Positions 3,331-52,707 of a DNA stretch of 64,000 nucleotides are shown here, piece after piece (the first letter of the stretch is position 1; every line of letters begins with the position of its first letter). The notes under the pieces are model-generated. The model worked only from the letters and a program-made list of their open reading frames with translations, searched no databases and had not been told where the DNA came from. The translations under genes and the position numbers were made by a program. The DNA comes from Escherichia coli (GTDB lineage Bacteria; Pseudomonadota; Gammaproteobacteria; Enterobacterales; Enterobacteriaceae), in NCBI RefSeq assembly GCF_003018255.1, contig NZ_CP027440.1; one strand, written 5' to 3'.

Positions 3331-3439
3331 AAGAATTTAGCCGTTTTTTATGCGCCATTAATGGATTATAAAACAGAGGGTTTATGAATGATTGAGCTTT
3401 TTATCTGAAAAAAGTCGCGGTTTCATGCCTGGATGCGTC

Positions 3440-4969: not shown

Positions 4970-5036
4970 TTTATATCCCATTTTGTGCAGCGATTACTGA
5001 CAGGGATACGTGTTTCATAACAAATTGTCAACACGC

Positions 5037-7042: not shown

Positions 7043-7731
7043 TGATACTGACCGATCCAGAATGGCAGGCGGTTTTACTAAGCCTGAAAGTTTCTTCCCT
7101 GGCTGTGCTGTTTAGCCTGCCGTTTGGGATCTTTTTTGCCTGGTTACTGGTGCGTTGCACGTTTCCGGGCAAAGCTCTGCTCGACAGCGTACTGCATCTA
7201 CCGCTGGTGTTACCGCCCGTGGTCGTCGGTTACTTATTATTAGTTTCGATGGGACGGCGCGGATTTATCGGTGAACGTCTGTATGACTGGTTTGGCATTA
7301 CCTTCGCCTTTAGCTGGCGCGGCGCGGTTCTCGCTGCCGCCGTCATGTCGTTTCCGCTGATGGTGCGGGCAATTCGTCTGGCGCTGGAAGGGGTTGATGT
7401 CAAACTGGAACAGGCCGCAAGAACACTGGGTGCCGGGCGCTGGCGCGTTTTCTTTACTATCACGTTACCGCTGACCTTACCGGGCATTATTGTTGGTACG
7501 GTACTGGCTTTTGCTCGTTCTCTCGGTGAGTTTGGTGCAACCATCACCTTTGTGTCGAACATTCCTGGTGAAACGCGAACCATTCCTTCTGCCATGTATA
7601 CCCTGATCCAGACCCCCGGCGGGGAAAGTGGAGCGGCGAGACTGTGCATTATTTCTATTGCACTGGCGATGATCTCCCTGTTGATTTCAGAATGGCTGGC
7701 CAGAATCAGCCGTGAACGGGCGGGGCGCTAA
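7042..7731 (+). CDS. modB: molybdate ABC transporter permease
   Basis: 229-aa hydrophobic ORF with the ABC permease EAA-like loop; between modA and modC. Confidence 0.95.
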
Positions 7732-12991: not shown

Positions 12992-13066
12992 AAAATTTTG
13001 TTGTCGTGATAATGACAATCAATAAAGGAATTCTGTATGAGTCATACAGAAAGAACAGGATATTAA

Positions 13067-46811: not shown

Positions 46812-47901
<1,090 letters not shown>

Positions 47902-48040
47902 AAAAAAGCCCGTCCAGTGGCGGACGGGCAAACAAGGGTAACATAGGATCAATGAGGGTTAGAGCATATGCGTCTGTCGGCAAACAGACAGGGAAATACT
48001 TGTGCTGGACGTAGCGTAAACGCCTTATCCGTTCTACGAA

Positions 48041-48301
48041 TTACTTATAAATTACCGCAGTACCGCTTAATTTATTGTTGTTGGTGGCAGAAGTGATGCT
48101 GTATCCACTCGCCCCAGCTGCCGCAGCTTTCTCAGCCAGTTTCGCTTCCAGGGCATCGAGGGTGGATGCGCCATCGGCAGAAACCACGCCGATTTTATTC
48201 ATGTTCTGTGCCTGGGATGCCGTTACCGGTTCCGCGGCAAACACGCCAAATGACAGAGTTGAAAGAGCCATAGCAGCAACAACAGTATTGATAGTTTTCA
48301 T
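48041..48301 (-). CDS. ybiJ: DUF1471 (YhcN-family) small secreted protein
   Basis: 86-aa ORF with signal peptide MKTINTVVAAMALSTLSFGVFA and C-terminal ...GTAVIYK. Confidence 0.9.
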   Translation of the reverse strand: MKTINTVVAAMALSTLSFGVFAAEPVTASQAQNMNKIGVVSADGASTLDALEAKLAEKAAAAGASGYSITSATNNNKLSGTAVIYK

Positions 48302-48565
48302 AATTAATCTCTCGCAGGTGATTTTTGTATAAGTGACGTTGTTTCGTCGATGTGATGAGTATCACGTTTTTTTTCGAGAGATAAAATCGAAGAGAATTGA
48401 CCGCCTTGTTCAAATAAATTGATTGATATCTAACATACTGATAATCCATTTATTTGTTGAACTTATGGACTTGTTTTATGCAGCGTGGCAGTCACGACAG
48501 CGTTAAAGGCACGGAATGCCACGCAAAATACAAATTATACTCGCTATACATCCCGCCAGTTGTAG

Positions 48566-48832
48566 TTAACGTAACTGGCTGTCTTTCGAACCTCTGCGAT
48601 TATATCCTGTATAAGCTGGTTTTTGTAAATCTTTCTCCTGCTGACAATGAATGCATAAGCGCACACCAGGAATGGCTTCCCGACGGGCTTGCGGGATGGG
48701 GGCTCCGCACTCTTCACATTCATACAGGCTTTCGCCACGCGGAATTTCACCCCGAGCGCGGGCAATCGCATCTTCAATTGTACTGTTGATCTGTTCGTTG
48801 ACGGCGTCATCGTTAGCCCAACCGGATGCCAT
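48566..48832 (-). CDS. ybiI: DksA/TraR-type C4 zinc-finger protein
   Basis: 88-aa ORF with CxxC-N17-CxxC (CEECGAPIPQARREAIPGVRLCIHC). Confidence 0.9.
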   Translation of the reverse strand: MASGWANDDAVNEQINSTIEDAIARARGEIPRGESLYECEECGAPIPQARREAIPGVRLCIHCQQEKDLQKPAYTGYNRRGSKDSQLR

Positions 48833-48905
48833 ATCGTCCTCCCCATATCAATACTTGTACAGTTAAGTGTAGCTAATATAGGGACGAACTCGGGCAGTTC
48901 AAGCG

Positions 48906-49583
48906 TCAGATCTCCGACCATTCCCGCAGCAGATTATGATAAAGATTGAGCAGCGACAGGATCTCTTCACTTTCGCCGTAGCGGCTTTTCAGCGACTGAA
49001 TATTGTTGTCCAGTTCAAACAGCATGGCGCGCTTTTTATCATCGCGGATCATCGACTGGATCCACATAAATGATGCCACTCGTACGCCGCGGGTTACGGG
49101 TGTCACGCAATGCAGGCTGCTGGAGGGATACAACACCAGATCGCCTGCCGGAAGTTTTACCCGATGTTGCCCGAAGGTGTCATTAACGACCAGTTCGCCG
49201 CCATCGTAGCTTTGTGGATCGCTTAAAAACAGCGTGGCAGAAAGGTCAGTGCGCATCCAGCCGTTTTGTGGGTGACTGCGTACTGCGCCATCCACATGAA
49301 AACCATAGGTTTCATTGTTCTGATAGCGATTAAACAGCGGCGTGGAAAGGGTACGCGGCAAGGCCGCGGCAAAGAACAAAGCATGTTGGTTAACCGCGTT
49401 CAGCACCTCATTTTGCAGGGCGGCGTATAACGTGCTGCGGGTGTCTACCTGTTGATTGTTCTTAACTTGCGCACCTTGTGCGCCAGTGGTGACGCGTCCA
49501 TCCACCCATTCGGCTTGTTCCAGTTGTTCGCGAAAACGGGCGACGTCCTGTGGCGATAGCACGCCGGGAATGTGGTACATCAT
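48906..49583 (-). CDS. ybiX: PKHD-type Fe(II)/2-oxoglutarate-dependent hydroxylase
   Basis: ORF trimmed to [30 protein letters not shown] (225 aa) with HxD...H motif; immediately downstream of fiu. Confidence 0.9.
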
Positions 49584-49624
49584 ACAAGTTCTCCAAAAAG
49601 TGGGGCCTGCGCCCCACATCTCAA

Positions 49625-51907
49625 TCAGAAATGCATATTGGCCGTGAGCAAGAAGGTTCTTGGCTCGCCCGGGTGATAACGGTAGCCGCTCTTGTTGATT
49701 GAGGCGACGTAATCGGTATCAAACAGGTTGTAGACGTTTAGCTGGAAGTCGAGATTGCGATTAACCCGATACCCCAGTTTAGCGTCGGCGACCCAATAAC
49801 CTTCGGTAAACGCTGGCGTTCCCACCGCGCCGTCAGAACCTTTATGCATACTGCCGATATAGCGTGCGCCCGCACCAACGGAAATATCATCGGTTGCCTG
49901 ATACTGGCTCCATAAGGTAAAGGCGTGCTCCGGGGTATACGGCAGCGATGAGGAACCATCCTGGGCAACATCTTTGCCGTTTTTGATGGTTGCTTTTTGC
50001 TGGGTATAGCCGCCAATCACCTGCCACGCGGGAGTGATATTCCCGGCCACGGATATCTCATAGCCTTCGACGCGTTTCTTACCGTATTGCGAGTAAGTTC
50101 CGTCATCATTTTGCTCAACTTCATTTTTGATATCAGTACGGAACAGCGCGGCGGTGAGCAACAGGCGTTTATCCAGAACCTGCCATTTGGTGCCAATCTC
50201 GCTGGTGTTGGCTTTTTGCGGTTTAAAATCGGTGCGGTTGGCACTGTTACCGCTGCCAGACTGCGCAAGGGCGAAGTTGTTGCCGCCCGGAGGCTGCTGG
50301 GAAACGGCATAGTTAATATAGACATTGCCGTTTTCCGTCAGGTGATACAGCGCCCCGGCTTTCCAGTTCACCAGATTGCCCGACTTGGCGGTATCGACGG
50401 TGGTGACCGGAGAACCTTTTGCCACGCCAGCAGGGCAGGTGATGGCACCGCGTCCGCTGCCGCCGCAGGCGGTGGCACTGTCATATTCAGTATGATAATT
50501 ATCCAGACGGATCCCGCCGTTCAGCTCAAAATCACGGGTGATTTGCAGCGTATCGAAGGCGTAAATTGCGAAGGTATCCGTCTGACCATTGGCGTTTGCG
50601 CCGTTGCGCGTCAGGCCGCCGGGATGAATGCTGCTGTCAGGATGATAAATATTTACCGCAGGTAACGTCACCGGATTAACGCCGTAGTTAGTCTGCGTTT
50701 CACGGGTAAATTCCACGCCGGTACTGACATCATGACCGATAGCGCCGGTATAGAACGTCGAGGTCAGGTTGGTCTGGTTGGTGAGAATTTTATTACTCAC
50801 ATCTTTAGTATTCGCCGTGCGTGACCAGGTCCAGCTATTCACATCGCTGGTGGGCTGGGTAATATTCGACGCCCCGCCCATAATCGCCGTCATCAGGTAA
50901 TCCTGCTTCACGCGCGACCAACGGGTAGTATTGCGAATGGTGGTGTTATCGTTGATGTCGTGCTCAAAACGCATGGTAGCGGTGTCGGTGGTCGAATCGT
51001 CGTAATCGGAATCCGTGCCGTAAAAGTTATGAGTATCAACTTTTCCGGAATGATTCAGAGCCGCTGTTCCCGCAGATGGGGCAGAATAACCCGGTAAACC
51101 GATAGTCGGAATGCCGCCGTCTGGCGTGTTGTGCTGGGTGACATGCAGATAATTAAGATACAAACGATTCGCTGTACCAAGGCCAAAAGCGACAGAAGGG
51201 GCGACGCCGTAACGCTCATTTTTGACTTTGTCGCGTCCGGCATCGTGCGTTTTTTCGCCCATTACATTCAGGCGCACCGCAGTGGTATCACCAATGACCT
51301 GATTGACGTCCAGCGTGCCGCGGCGGAACCAGGCGCTGCCAATACTGGCGGAGGCGTCAATGCCGGAATCATTGCGCGGCTGTTTGCTGATCATATTGAT
51401 CGAGCCTGTCGGCGCGCTGCGCCCGTAGTCGGTGCCGGACGGCCCTTTAATTACTTCGACCTGCTCGGTATTGAAGGTGTCGCGCGAGACGCTGCCGATA
51501 TCGCGAATGCCATCGATATAAATACTGTTAGAGGTATCGGCACCGCGCATATAAATGGCGTCGCCAGTGGTGGAGTTACCGTTCTCACCCGCAAAAAACG
51601 CACCCACGCCGGGGACGTTTTTGAGCGCGTCGGTAAGGTTGGTTGCACCCTGATCTTTAATCACTTGTTCAGAAATCACCGTCATCGTGCGGGTAGTATC
51701 CGCTACCGGACGCGAGAATTTCGGATCGGCAGATTGTTGTGGCGCATAAAGCGAAGGCGTTGATGCTTCGACAACCAGCGTGTCATCCGCGTTAGCTTGC
51801 CCTTCGGCAGCGAGTGCCTGCGCCACAGGCGTAATACCAATACAAAGACCGGCAAAGAACGTGAGCGAATGAAATTGTCTGGCAGGGAAATTGCGATTGT
51901 TTTCCAT
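49625..51907 (-). CDS. fiu: TonB-dependent catecholate siderophore receptor Fiu
   Basis: 760-aa ORF with signal peptide, TonB box region and C-terminal beta-barrel ending in F. Confidence 0.95.
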
Positions 51908-52011
51908 TTTGCAGGTGACTTTTTCTTATATGGTGAAATTTTCACTGTCACGAGAAAGCATCTCTGCGGATGCGATGCCACTGTTAATCCCGTGATAGCG
52001 TCCGTGCAAGT

Positions 52012-52037
52012 GATAATAATTTTGATAAGCATTATCA
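52012..52037. promoter_or_regulatory. Fur box in the fiu promoter
   Basis: gataataattttgataagcattatca matches the GATAATGATAATCATTATC-type consensus about 100 bp upstream of the fiu start. Confidence 0.7.
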
Positions 52038-52171
52038 CTTGGCGCGATTTTCTATCACCCATTGCGCGAAAAAGAAATACATTTATTTACATTGCGTTCA
52101 TATTTGATGTTTTTTGCTTACAAATTGGACGAAAACTGCATCCAGAGGCGAATGCAGTTACGTTGGTGGGG

Positions 52172-52432
52172 TTATTTGTAGATGATTGCAGTACCGAACA
52201 TCTGGTCATTTCCGCCTGCGGAATTAATGACATAACCTTTCGCGCCTTGTTCGCGCGCTTTTTCTGCCAGTTTATCCTCCAGATCGCTTAGGTTTGATGC
52301 GCCAGTTGCCGAAACGGTACCGGCGGGCCGTAGTTGACCACTGTCCAGGTTACTCATCGGTTGCGCGGCATAAGCCGTGAGAGAGATTCCGCTCAGGACG
52401 GTGGCAATCAGTAGTGTGAGGCACTTTTTCAT
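52172..52432 (-). CDS. mcbA: DUF1471 (YhcN-family) small secreted protein McbA
   Basis: ORF trimmed to MKKCLTLLIATVLSGISLTAYA (86 aa), C-terminal ...GTAIIYK; paralog of ybiJ. Confidence 0.88.
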   Translation of the reverse strand: MKKCLTLLIATVLSGISLTAYAAQPMSNLDSGQLRPAGTVSATGASNLSDLEDKLAEKAREQGAKGYVINSAGGNDQMFGTAIIYK

Positions 52433-52707
52433 AATGACATCCTCATAAATACAACGGGTAGTGCCAGATAAGTGTAGGTCGCCTGCGCGATGAAAATGAC
52501 GCAAAAAATTGACAGAGATGCGCTTATTTTTTGAACAATATATTTTTACAAAATAAGATAAATCAATGACATGCATGATGATGATTTTTATGGTGAATTA
52601 CCATAAACCATAGCCATGTGAAGGTTTTTAGAAATGATAAACGCAGCCAGATATTTACCCTGTCGCGTTATGCGGGTATCTTACGCCGCTGCTTAAAGGA
52701 GAATGCT

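What the first reader, a model, noticed from the sequence alone, without database searches (positions are those of the whole stretch)
48041..52432. Two DUF1471 paralogues (ybiJ, mcbA) flank the Fur-regulated fiu-ybiX-ybiI unit
ybiJ and mcbA are both 86 aa, both signal-peptide bearing, and share the C-terminal G-T-A-(V/I)-I-Y-K motif. They bracket the siderophore receptor fiu, the Fe(II)/2OG hydroxylase ybiX and the zinc-finger protein ybiI. A CRP-like site (tgtgatgagtatcacg, 48351..48366) lies upstream of ybiJ. The arrangement suggests a local duplication with divergence into different regulons.
Basis: seen in the sequence. Interest (0 to 1): 0.3.

Follow-up and report, generated by a model that had tools for sequence, protein, structure and literature searches.

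The report
Known E. coli ybiJ–fiu–mcbA region
This is the well-annotated E. coli ybiJ-ybiI-ybiX-fiu-mcbA region: two small, anciently duplicated periplasmic stress proteins lie either side of an iron-uptake gene pair that sits elsewhere in some relatives, so the arrangement is ordinary and mostly already described.

Summary
The window is E. coli chromosome. ybiJ (48041-48301) and mcbA (52172-52432) are both 86-aa DUF1471 proteins, 46.5% identical without gaps, and they flank ybiI, ybiX and fiu. The CRP-like site is exactly at 48351-48366.

- YbiJ is as close to the unlinked paralogue BhsA (46.5%) as to McbA. A tree puts YbiJ and McbA as sisters with only 63% bootstrap.
- The flanks share nothing, but synonymous sites are saturated, so that test says nothing either way.
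- Both genes hold their slots in about 9 genera, so any duplication is ancient.
- fiu-ybiX is a separable two-gene cassette. In the K. pneumoniae complex and K. aerogenes, mcbA-ybiI-ybiJ are contiguous; in K. pneumoniae MGH 78578 fiu-ybiX lies elsewhere. ybiI travels with the DUF1471 genes, not with fiu.

Regulation does differ between the genes.
- Fur controls fiu, ybiX and ybiI.
- McbR represses mcbA (literature).
- YhaJ and CRP act on ybiJ. The CRP site is published as CRP-bound and is invariant in 19 species. It covers the -10 hexamer and the mapped start site, which implies repression rather than activation.

Almost all of this is already known, so interest is low.

The parts
48041..48301 (-). 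ybiJ CDS: 86-aa DUF1471 periplasmic protein with a signal peptide
   Evidence: ORF; RefSeq annotation; PF07338 at E 7e-18
47908..47929 (-). Terminator-like hairpin plus T-run downstream of ybiJ. It lies within the stretch that corresponds to the K-12 sRNA ZbiJ (about window 47900-47996).
   Evidence: Scan; K-12 annotation; alignment to K-12
48348..48351 (-). Mapped ybiJ transcription start sites, 47 and 50 nt upstream of the ATG
   Evidence: Kim et al. 2012, supplement file 2. The upstream 51-mers given there match the window sequence apart from one base that differs in the A-run upstream of the CRP site.
48351..48366 (.). CRP site TGTGATGAGTATCACG. It contains the -10 hexamer GATACT (48358-48363, minus strand) and spans -15 to +1 of the promoter.
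   Evidence: Sequence; CRP ChIP-seq; genomic SELEX; Footprint-seq, estimated Kd 1.9 nM; both half-sites invariant in 19 species
48410..48422 (.). YhaJ (LysR-type regulator) box TCA-N7-TGA, centred 65 nt upstream of the start site
   Evidence: Positions match the published inactivating mutations C-120T and T-112C/T-111C; YhaJ gel shift reported (PMC5031710). The box keeps a fixed 56-nt offset from the CRP site wherever it is present (12 of 19 species).
48566..48832 (-). ybiI CDS: DksA/TraR-type C4 zinc-finger protein. Its own start site is mapped at about 48929, inside the 3' end of ybiX.
   Evidence: start site; member of the Fur-1 iModulon
48906..49583 (-). ybiX CDS: Fe(II)/2-oxoglutarate PKHD-type hydroxylase
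49600..49617 (-). GC-rich hairpin plus T-run in the 41-bp fiu-ybiX spacer. Strain 2014C-3338 (the one aligned) has a 171-bp REP-type insertion here, and nearly all other genomes listed match in three pieces with the same extra length.
   Evidence: Scan; alignment; match pattern
49625..51907 (-). fiu CDS: TonB-dependent catecholate siderophore receptor
52012..52036 (.). Two overlapping Fur boxes (15/19 and 14/19 matches to the consensus). They lie 3-30 nt downstream of the mapped fiu start sites (52039 and 52042) and overlap a consensus-like -10.
   Evidence: joint-best Fur match of the window, tied with 13008-13026; promoter scan; start sites; Fur regulon literature
52172..52432 (-). mcbA (ybiM) CDS: 86-aa DUF1471 periplasmic protein
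   Evidence: PF07338 at E 1e-19
52471..52476 (-). Likely mcbA -10 hexamer TACACT, within the conserved block CCTA(A/C)ACTTA
   Evidence: Conserved in 12 species. The K. pneumoniae ybiM start site maps 7 nt after the same hexamer. Inferred for E. coli.
52502..52533 (.). Conserved inverted repeat CAAAAAAT-N16-ATTTTTTG upstream of the mcbA -10. Candidate operator; regulator unknown.
   Evidence: Arms nearly invariant in Escherichia, Citrobacter, Leclercia and Silvania: the GTTCAAAAAA and TTTTTTGC cores are fixed and only the outermost base of each arm varies. Not tested further.

Best explanation
This is the ordinary, conserved E. coli chromosomal stretch hcxB | ybiJ-ybiI-ybiX-fiu-mcbA | rlmF.

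ybiJ and mcbA encode two small Sec-exported DUF1471 (YhcN/BhsA/McbA family) envelope-stress and biofilm proteins. They are ancient paralogues within the BhsA-YbiJ-McbA subclade. Most likely they arose by a local duplication that predates the divergence of Escherichia, Citrobacter, Klebsiella/Raoultella, Kluyvera, Leclercia and their relatives. That would be the usual way this family expands.

They do not bracket the iron genes for any functional reason. fiu-ybiX is a self-contained, Fur-repressed two-gene cassette made of a catecholate siderophore receptor and a hydroxylase. It sits between mcbA and ybiI in E. coli and most relatives. In the K. pneumoniae complex and K. aerogenes it is absent from that slot, and mcbA-ybiI-ybiJ are contiguous; in K. 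pneumoniae MGH 78578 it is placed elsewhere in the genome.

Each gene is transcribed from its own promoter with its own control.
- fiu: a Fur box lies over the core promoter (shown by sequence and literature).
- ybiI: it has its own start site inside the ybiX 3' end and is co-regulated with the Fur-1 iModulon (literature).
- mcbA: the -10 is TACACT (inferred), and McbR represses it (literature only).
- ybiJ: the start site is 47-50 nt upstream of the ATG. The YhaJ activator box is at -65 (published). The CRP site covers the -10 hexamer and +1, so cAMP-CRP most likely represses ybiJ or competes with RNA polymerase rather than activating it. The sign of that effect is my inference.
For: Identity and annotation. 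Domains. Paralogy.

Subclade and sister test: YbiJ, McbA and BhsA clades are each monophyletic at 97-100% bootstrap. YbiJ+McbA+BhsA together get 89%, YbiJ+McbA 63%, McbA+BhsA 29% and YbiJ+BhsA 6%. YbiJ and McbA align without gaps, whereas BhsA and YhcN need indels.

Both slots are occupied by orthologues, co-oriented, in about 9 genera. Tandem expansion is typical of the family: yjfN-bsmA are adjacent in E. coli, and yhcN sits next to a ycfR-like gene in Salmonella (PMC4092069).

The cassette is separable.
- The fiu-ybiX pair occurs alone in Pantoea, Serratia, Rouxiella, Tatumella and in beta- and gamma-proteobacteria, in unrelated contexts.
- The K. pneumoniae complex and K. aerogenes have rlmF, a flavin reductase gene, mcbA, ybiI, ybiJ and ybiB in a row, with no fiu-ybiX.
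- In K. pneumoniae MGH 78578, fiu and ybiX orthologues lie between the ompW and trpA orthologues.

Regulation.
- Fur box and Fur-1 iModulon membership.
- The YhaJ box coincides with published mutations and a gel shift.
- CRP binding is shown by ChIP-seq, SELEX and footprinting.
- The CRP site is invariant in 19 species.
- Mapped start sites place it at -15 to +1.
- A YbiJ-GFP fusion was seen only in M9 glucose.
- Another DUF1471 gene is directly repressed by CRP in K. pneumoniae.
Against: The sister relationship of YbiJ and McbA is weakly supported. Bootstrap is 63% on 66 columns. Raw identity puts YbiJ marginally closer to BhsA: 45.0% against 43.6%.

There is no flank or synonymous-site signal left.

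No outgroup genome with a single pre-duplication gene at the rlmF-ybiB locus was found.

Whether fiu-ybiX was inserted between the paralogues or deleted in the K. pneumoniae/K. aerogenes lineage is not resolved. The broad distribution of the E. coli-type order favours a later deletion or relocation in Klebsiella.

CRP repression of ybiJ is inferred from geometry only. I found no crp-mutant expression data.

I found no defined McbR operator, so the McbR link rests on the literature alone.
Confidence: 0.62

Rival explanations
1. Independent origin. mcbA is not a local copy of ybiJ. It derives from a bhsA-like gene, or another family member, that was transposed or transferred next to rlmF. The two paralogues then ended up near each other by chance or by later rearrangement.
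For: McbA+BhsA is recovered in 29% of bootstraps. YbiJ is as similar to BhsA as to McbA. In Salmonella the best match to McbA is YcfR/BhsA. mcbA is patchy: it is absent from its slot in the K. oxytoca group, Kluyvera sichuanensis, two Pseudocitrobacter genomes and one unnamed species, and Salmonella lacks it. It evolves faster: 62% within-clade identity against 78% for YbiJ. The promoters and flanks are unrelated.
Against: All genes at the mcbA slot form one clade at 97% bootstrap, so the patchiness is loss rather than repeated gain. The genes are co-oriented, of equal length, align without gaps, and lie only 572 bp apart in K. pneumoniae. Family members cluster more often than chance predicts.
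Confidence: 0.25
2. Functional coupling. The DUF1471 proteins flank fiu because they work with the outer-membrane receptor or the hydroxylase, for example as periplasmic partners in catecholate or iron stress. On this view the arrangement is selected as a unit.
For: The gene order is conserved in about 9 genera. All products except YbiI and YbiX are envelope proteins. DUF1471 genes respond to oxidative stress.
Against: fiu-ybiX exists without any DUF1471 neighbour in many lineages. It is separated from the mcbA-ybiI-ybiJ cluster in the K. pneumoniae complex and K. aerogenes. mcbA is repeatedly lost while fiu stays. The regulons differ: the Fur-1 iModulon lists fiu, ybiX and ybiI but not ybiJ or mcbA. 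There is no good Fur box at ybiJ or mcbA; the best matches are 13/19, no better than the background tail.
Confidence: 0.05
3. CRP activates ybiJ, so the site is a conventional upstream activator site.
For: The site lies upstream of the coding sequence and is a 9/10 match to the core consensus. CRP binds it in vivo and in vitro.
Against: Relative to the mapped start sites, the site centre is at about -7.5 or -10.5, not -41.5 or -61.5. The -10 hexamer lies inside the site. The CRP site of the paralogue bhsA also sits inside its core promoter, centred at -22.5. A DUF1471 gene in Klebsiella is repressed by CRP. YbiJ-GFP was seen only in glucose medium.
Confidence: 0.2

Closest known systems
E. coli K-12 ybiJ (b0802) and mcbA/ybiM (b0806), members of the DUF1471 / YhcN / BhsA-McbA family (Pfam PF07338; Eletsky et al. 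2014, PMC4092069)
   Same: YbiJ is identical to the K-12 protein. McbA differs at one residue (I for T in GTAxIYK). The neighbours, domains, signal peptides and size are the same. YbiJ has already been called a paralogue of McbA in print.
   Different: Nothing substantive. This strain lacks 89 bp of REP sequence in the hcxB-ybiJ spacer.
Other tandem or clustered DUF1471 paralogues: yjfN-bsmA(-yjfY) in E. coli, and yhcN next to a ycfR-like gene in Salmonella
   Same: Small co-oriented family members lie next to or near each other. This has been read as expansion by local duplication.
   Different: ybiJ and mcbA are separated by ybiI, and in most genera also by the fiu-ybiX cassette. The pair belongs to the BhsA-like subclade rather than the YjfN/BsmA one.
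fiu-ybiX (piuA-piuC type): a Fur-regulated pair of TonB-dependent receptor and Fe(II)/2OG hydroxylase
   Same: A receptor gene is followed by a YbiX-like hydroxylase in the same orientation across Enterobacterales and in beta- and gamma-proteobacteria. A Fur box lies at the receptor promoter.
   Different: Only in Enterobacteriaceae does the pair sit inside the mcbA-ybiI-ybiJ cluster. In distant lineages the receptor is only 23-39% identical to Fiu.
CRP-repressed promoters where the site overlaps the core promoter, for example KP1_4563, a DUF1471 gene of K. pneumoniae (PMC5521740)
   Same: A high-affinity CRP site lies over or within the core promoter of a DUF1471 gene.
   Different: Repression has not been shown for ybiJ. 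Here the site also contains the -10 hexamer, and it is combined with a YhaJ activator box at -65.

Membership tests
DUF1471 / YhcN-BhsA-McbA family (PF07338) | Match to the Pfam model above its gathering score | tested here: met
   YbiJ 64.8 bits and McbA 70.6 bits, against a cut-off of 27
DUF1471 / YhcN-BhsA-McbA family (PF07338) | Small single-domain protein (about 85-110 aa) with an N-terminal Sec signal peptide | tested here: met
   86 aa each. Both have MK, a hydrophobic core and A-x-A before the mature AEP/AQP, read from the sequence. No dedicated signal-peptide predictor was run. The literature agrees.
DUF1471 / YhcN-BhsA-McbA family (PF07338) | Family is small and restricted to Enterobacterales | tested here: inconclusive
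   The family is small: only 169 cluster representatives at 50% identity reach E <= 1e-3 among 1.84 billion proteins. That library carries no organism names, so the taxonomic range was not shown by it. Every named hit and locus seen here is from Enterobacterales, and the literature says the same.
Local (tandem or segmental) gene duplication | The two copies are each other's closest relatives | tested here: inconclusive
   NJ bootstrap is 63% for YbiJ+McbA, 29% for McbA+BhsA and 6% for YbiJ+BhsA. Raw identities are tied.
Local (tandem or segmental) gene duplication | Residual nucleotide similarity in the flanks or at synonymous sites | tested here: not met
   Flank alignments score no better than shuffles (z -0.4 to 1.2). 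Third-position identity is 32%. This is expected for an ancient event, so it does not exclude one.
Local (tandem or segmental) gene duplication | Same orientation and stable co-location across taxa | tested here: met
   Both genes are on the same strand at fixed slots in about 9 genera. They lie 572 bp apart in K. pneumoniae.
CRP (cAMP receptor protein) binding site | TGTGA-N6-TCACA core, bound by CRP | tested here: met
   9/10 core match. Both half-sites are invariant in 19 species. Binding is published from ChIP-seq, SELEX and Footprint-seq.
CRP class I / class II activation | Site centred near -61.5 or -41.5 relative to the transcription start | tested here: not met
   The centre is at -7.5 or -10.5 relative to the mapped start sites.
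Fur-repressed promoter | Fur box (GATAATGATAATCATTATC-like) overlapping the core promoter, with iron/Fur-dependent expression | tested here: met
   15/19 and 14/19 overlapping matches at 52012-52036; the 15/19 is the joint-best of the window, tied with 13008-13026. They lie next to the mapped start sites. Expression data come from the literature only.
YhaJ (LysR-type) regulated promoter | T-N11-A / TCA-N7-TGA box near -65, shown to be needed for induction | tested here: met
   The box at 48410-48422 coincides with published mutations at -120 and -112/-111 from the ATG. It is centred 65 nt upstream of the mapped start site.
McbR (YncC) regulated promoter | McbR operator in the mcbA promoter | not testable with these tools
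   I found no defined consensus; the only description I found is AT-rich sites with an 'ATATAT' motif from ChIP-seq. Repression and a gel shift are known only from Zhang et al. 2008, cited.

The most novel reading that the evidence does not exclude
cAMP-CRP is a conserved repressor of ybiJ, acting against YhaJ. The CRP site contains the -10 hexamer and the start site, and it keeps a fixed 56-nt offset from the YhaJ box in the 12 of 19 sampled species that have an exact box. CRP sites inside core promoters may be a shared trait of the BhsA/YbiJ/YhcN branch that mcbA has lost. Separately, the E. coli gene order may result from relocation of a portable fiu-ybiX cassette into or out of an older mcbA-ybiI-ybiJ cluster.
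Probability: 0.5. Interest if true: 0.25.

Novelty: already known. Interest (0 to 1): 0.12.

Why it matters
It matters little beyond tidying the annotation. The genes, their family, the Fur, McbR, YhaJ and CRP links, and the paralogy are all in the literature or in RefSeq.

Two small points may help people who work on these genes.
1. The ybiJ CRP site lies over the -10 hexamer and the start site. That predicts catabolite repression of a stress gene whose function is still unknown. It may explain why YbiJ was seen only in glucose medium.
2. fiu-ybiX behaves as a portable two-gene module, while ybiI stays with the DUF1471 genes. ybiI should therefore not be assumed to be part of the siderophore unit, even though it is co-regulated with it.

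Tried and rejected
- **Flank comparison.** I do not count it as decisive, because synonymous sites are saturated.
- **Strict Fur consensus.** Allowing up to 3 mismatches finds nothing in the window. A ranked scan was needed.
- **Candidate GntR-type operator.** I first suspected the palindrome ATGGTGAATTACCAT (52590-52604) as a McbR operator. It is not conserved even within Escherichia, so I dropped it.
- **CRP at mcbA.** There is no CRP box upstream of mcbA. The best candidate is 8/10, with only one good half-site.
- **Outgroup state of the rlmF-ybiB locus.**
  - Distant YbiJ-like representatives P0184, P0190 and P0208 lie on short contigs or in unrelated contexts, so no pre-duplication state was obtained.
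- **Direction of the fiu-ybiX event.** The mcbA-ybiI spacers of K. pneumoniae and K. aerogenes show no fiu, ybiX or Fur-box remnant. They show only the ybiI promoter region. Insertion and deletion cannot be told apart from them.
- **First bootstrap run.** It crashed on a print statement after computing. I repeated it with 26 taxa.
- **Not attempted.** I did not run structure prediction, because the DUF1471 fold is already solved for family members.

Full report
**What is there.** The window is E. coli chromosome. The 5.5-kb stretch around the finding is 100% identical to strain JNE23-011, and it is present in 5421 of 5426 complete E. coli genomes. RefSeq and K-12 annotation give, on the minus strand, ybiJ, ybiI, ybiX, fiu and mcbA, bounded by hcxB and rlmF. 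The ORF coordinates match the finding: ybiJ 48041-48301, ybiI 48566-48832, ybiX 48906-49583, fiu 49625-51907 and mcbA 52172-52432. Pfam confirms the domains. YbiJ and McbA both hit PF07338 (DUF1471). YbiI is a DksA/TraR zinc finger. YbiX is a 2OG-Fe(II)/PKHD hydroxylase. Fiu is a TonB-dependent receptor.

**The paralogue pair.** YbiJ and McbA are both 86 aa and 46.5% identical with no gap. Both have an obvious Sec signal, with A-x-A before AEP or AQP. The shared C-terminal GTA(V/I)IYK is real but is a family motif. BhsA has GTAVIYK and YahO has GTANIYK. K-12 McbA and most McbA orthologues have GTATIYK. I extracted the other family members from K-12: YahO, BhsA, YdgH, YhcN, YjfN, BsmA and YjfY. 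YbiJ is no closer to McbA than to unlinked paralogues. It is 46.5% identical to McbA, 46.5% to BhsA and 45.5% to YhcN; McbA and BhsA are 43% identical.

**Duplication test at nucleotide level.** The coding sequences still align (z = 10 against shuffles). Identity by codon position is 60%, 61% and 32%, so synonymous sites are saturated. The upstream and downstream flanks score no better than shuffled sequence in any orientation. It has no power at this divergence.

**Synteny.** I used YbiX as an anchor and obtained 80 loci from one genome per species. I mapped all neighbours by tblastn and an HMM.
- The order rlmF | mcbA-fiu-ybiX-ybiI-ybiJ | (hcxB) ybiB recurs in Escherichia, Citrobacter, Leclercia, Silvania, Raoultella, one Pseudocitrobacter and a Klebsiella MAG. 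Kluyvera has the same order but lacks ybiI.
- The ybiJ slot is filled in every such locus that extends that far.
- The mcbA slot is empty in K. michiganensis, K. spallanzanii, Kluyvera sichuanensis, two Pseudocitrobacter genomes and one unnamed species. Salmonella also lacks McbA (PMC4092069).
- In Pantoea, Rouxiella, Serratia and Tatumella, and in beta- and gamma-proteobacteria, only the receptor-ybiX pair is found. It has no DUF1471 gene, ybiI, rlmF or ybiB nearby, and its contexts are unrelated to one another.

**Phylogeny.** I used the slot genes plus BhsA and YhcN orthologues from a protein search. A neighbour-joining tree on 66 mature-domain columns gave these bootstrap values:
- YbiJ-slot genes form one clade at 100%, mcbA-slot genes at 97% and BhsA at 100%.
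- YbiJ+McbA+BhsA together get 89%.
- YbiJ+McbA as sisters gets 63%, McbA+BhsA 29% and YbiJ+BhsA 6%.

McbA evolves faster: within-clade identity is 62%, against 78% for YbiJ and 85% for BhsA. The pair is therefore ancient, and the empty mcbA slots are losses. A local duplication is the favoured reading but is not proven. Two more points support it. The family expands in tandem elsewhere, as with yjfN-bsmA and with yhcN next to a ycfR-like gene in Salmonella. YbiJ and McbA also share the same length and align without gaps.

**The iron genes are a separable cassette.** The supplement of Kim et al. 2012 gave a lead. In K. pneumoniae MGH 78578 the orthologues of ybiB, ybiJ, ybiM and rlmF have consecutive locus tags. 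The fiu and ybiX orthologues lie between the ompW and trpA orthologues. I fetched the loci to check. In the K. pneumoniae complex and K. aerogenes the order is rlmF, a flavin reductase gene, mcbA, ybiI, ybiJ, ybiB, with no fiu-ybiX. In K. pneumoniae, ybiI starts 20 bp after the mcbA stop, and ybiJ starts 572 bp after it. 'fiu-ybiX-ybiI' is therefore a co-regulated set rather than an evolutionary unit, because ybiI stays with the DUF1471 genes. The Klebsiella spacers hold no cassette remnant, so I cannot say whether the cassette was inserted or deleted. The wide spread of the E. coli-type order favours a later relocation in Klebsiella.

**Regulation of fiu, ybiX and ybiI.** The window's joint-best match to the 19-bp Fur consensus (15/19, tied with 13008-13026) is at 52018-52036. 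An overlapping 14/19 match is at 52012-52030. Both lie 3-30 nt downstream of the mapped fiu start sites and overlap a consensus-like -10. fiu, ybiX and ybiI are in the Fur-1 iModulon (PMC10164565). ybiI has its own mapped start site 97 nt upstream of its ATG, inside ybiX. Only a weak Fur-like match (13/19) is found there.

**Regulation of ybiJ.** The 16-mer TGTGATGAGTATCACG is at 48351-48366.
- Significance: on sequence alone it is not significant in 64 kb, since 1.7 matches are expected by chance.
- Binding: it is listed as a CRP ChIP-seq site in ETEC (PMC4287617) and as a genomic SELEX target (PMC3105977). Footprint-seq gives an estimated Kd of 1.9 nM (PMC12871828).
- Conservation: in my alignment of 19 species, CGTGATACT and TCACATCGAC are invariant while the surroundings drift.
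- Geometry: the mapped start sites are 47 and 50 nt upstream of the ATG (PMC3415461 supplement). That places the site at -15 to +1, and the -10 hexamer GATACT lies inside it.
- YhaJ: the published YhaJ box (TCA-N7-TGA) was defined by mutations at -120 and -112/-111 from the ATG and by a gel shift (PMC5031710). It maps to 48410-48422, centred 65 nt upstream of the start site, which is the usual position for a LysR-type regulator.

This geometry argues for CRP as a repressor or competitor, not an activator. Three observations fit. YbiJ-GFP was detected only in M9 glucose. CRP directly represses another DUF1471 gene in K. pneumoniae. The CRP site of bhsA lies inside its own core promoter, centred at -22.5. 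The sign of the CRP effect on ybiJ remains my inference.

**Regulation of mcbA.** No CRP box is present. The conserved blocks are a likely -10 (TACACT, 52471-52476) and an inverted repeat CAAAAAAT-N16-ATTTTTTG at 52502-52533. The K. pneumoniae ybiM start site maps 7 nt after the same hexamer. McbR repression is known from the literature only. I found no defined McbR operator, so a McbR matrix scan was not possible.

**Verdict.** The flanked 'unit' is a composite. The CRP site is a core-promoter site. The main known ybiJ regulator, YhaJ, was missed. Nearly everything here is already annotated or published, so novelty is 'already known' and interest is low.

Noticed in passing
window 47990-48040 (hcxB-ybiJ spacer): The spacer is 89 bp shorter than in K-12. 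One REP-type repeat copy has been lost by recombination between direct repeats (gcgtaaacgcct[t/g]atccgt). The region equivalent to the K-12 sRNA ZbiJ (about 47900-47996) is intact. The small ORF ybiE (starting at 47968) has lost its stop codon (TGA to TTA) and reads on into the antisense of ybiJ.
   Followed up: partly
window 49584-49624 (fiu-ybiX spacer): This 41-bp spacer carries a GC-rich hairpin plus T-run (49600-49617), a possible partial terminator between fiu and ybiX. Strain 2014C-3338, the one aligned, has a 171-bp REP-type insertion at this point, which the window and K-12 lack. Almost all other genomes listed match in three pieces with the same extra length. Only 2 of 5421 genomes match the window collinearly over the 5.5 kb.
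   Followed up: partly
L089 7247-9094; L092 7228-9195 (K. pneumoniae complex, K. aerogenes): mcbA, ybiI and ybiJ are contiguous, with no fiu-ybiX. A 204-aa flavin reductase gene (PF01613) lies between rlmF and mcbA. The same gene is present in Kluyvera, Raoultella, some Pseudocitrobacter and the K. oxytoca group. In K. pneumoniae MGH 78578, fiu and ybiX lie between the ompW and trpA orthologues.
   Followed up: yes
L005 about 4990-5005 (bhsA promoter); L007 about 7482-7497 (yhcN promoter); L004 about 3361-3376 (yahN/yahO spacer): Other DUF1471 paralogues also carry strong CRP sites that are published as CRP-bound. The bhsA site is centred at -22.5 from its mapped start site. The yhcN site starts just after a TATACT hexamer. 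CRP sites within core promoters may be a shared trait of this branch of the family. mcbA lacks one.
   Followed up: partly
window 52502-52533: Inverted repeat CAAAAAAT-N16-ATTTTTTG upstream of the likely mcbA -10. Its arms are nearly invariant across Escherichia, Citrobacter, Leclercia and Silvania. The regulator is unknown, and it is absent in the K. pneumoniae version of the promoter.
   Followed up: no
window 13008-13026: The other 15/19 Fur-consensus match in the window (GATAATGACAATCAATAAA) lies in the ybhH-ybhI spacer.
   Followed up: partly
window 52417-52419 versus L003 (K-12) mcbA: The window's McbA has GTAIIYK where K-12 and most Escherichia and Citrobacter orthologues have GTATIYK. 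Isoleucine is the residue seen in the Raoultella and Klebsiella orthologues.
   Followed up: no
L034-L036, L038, L040, L041 (Kluyvera) and L028: ybiI is absent between ybiX and ybiJ in Kluyvera species and in one unnamed Enterobacteriaceae genome. ybiI is therefore also dispensable at this locus.
   Followed up: no
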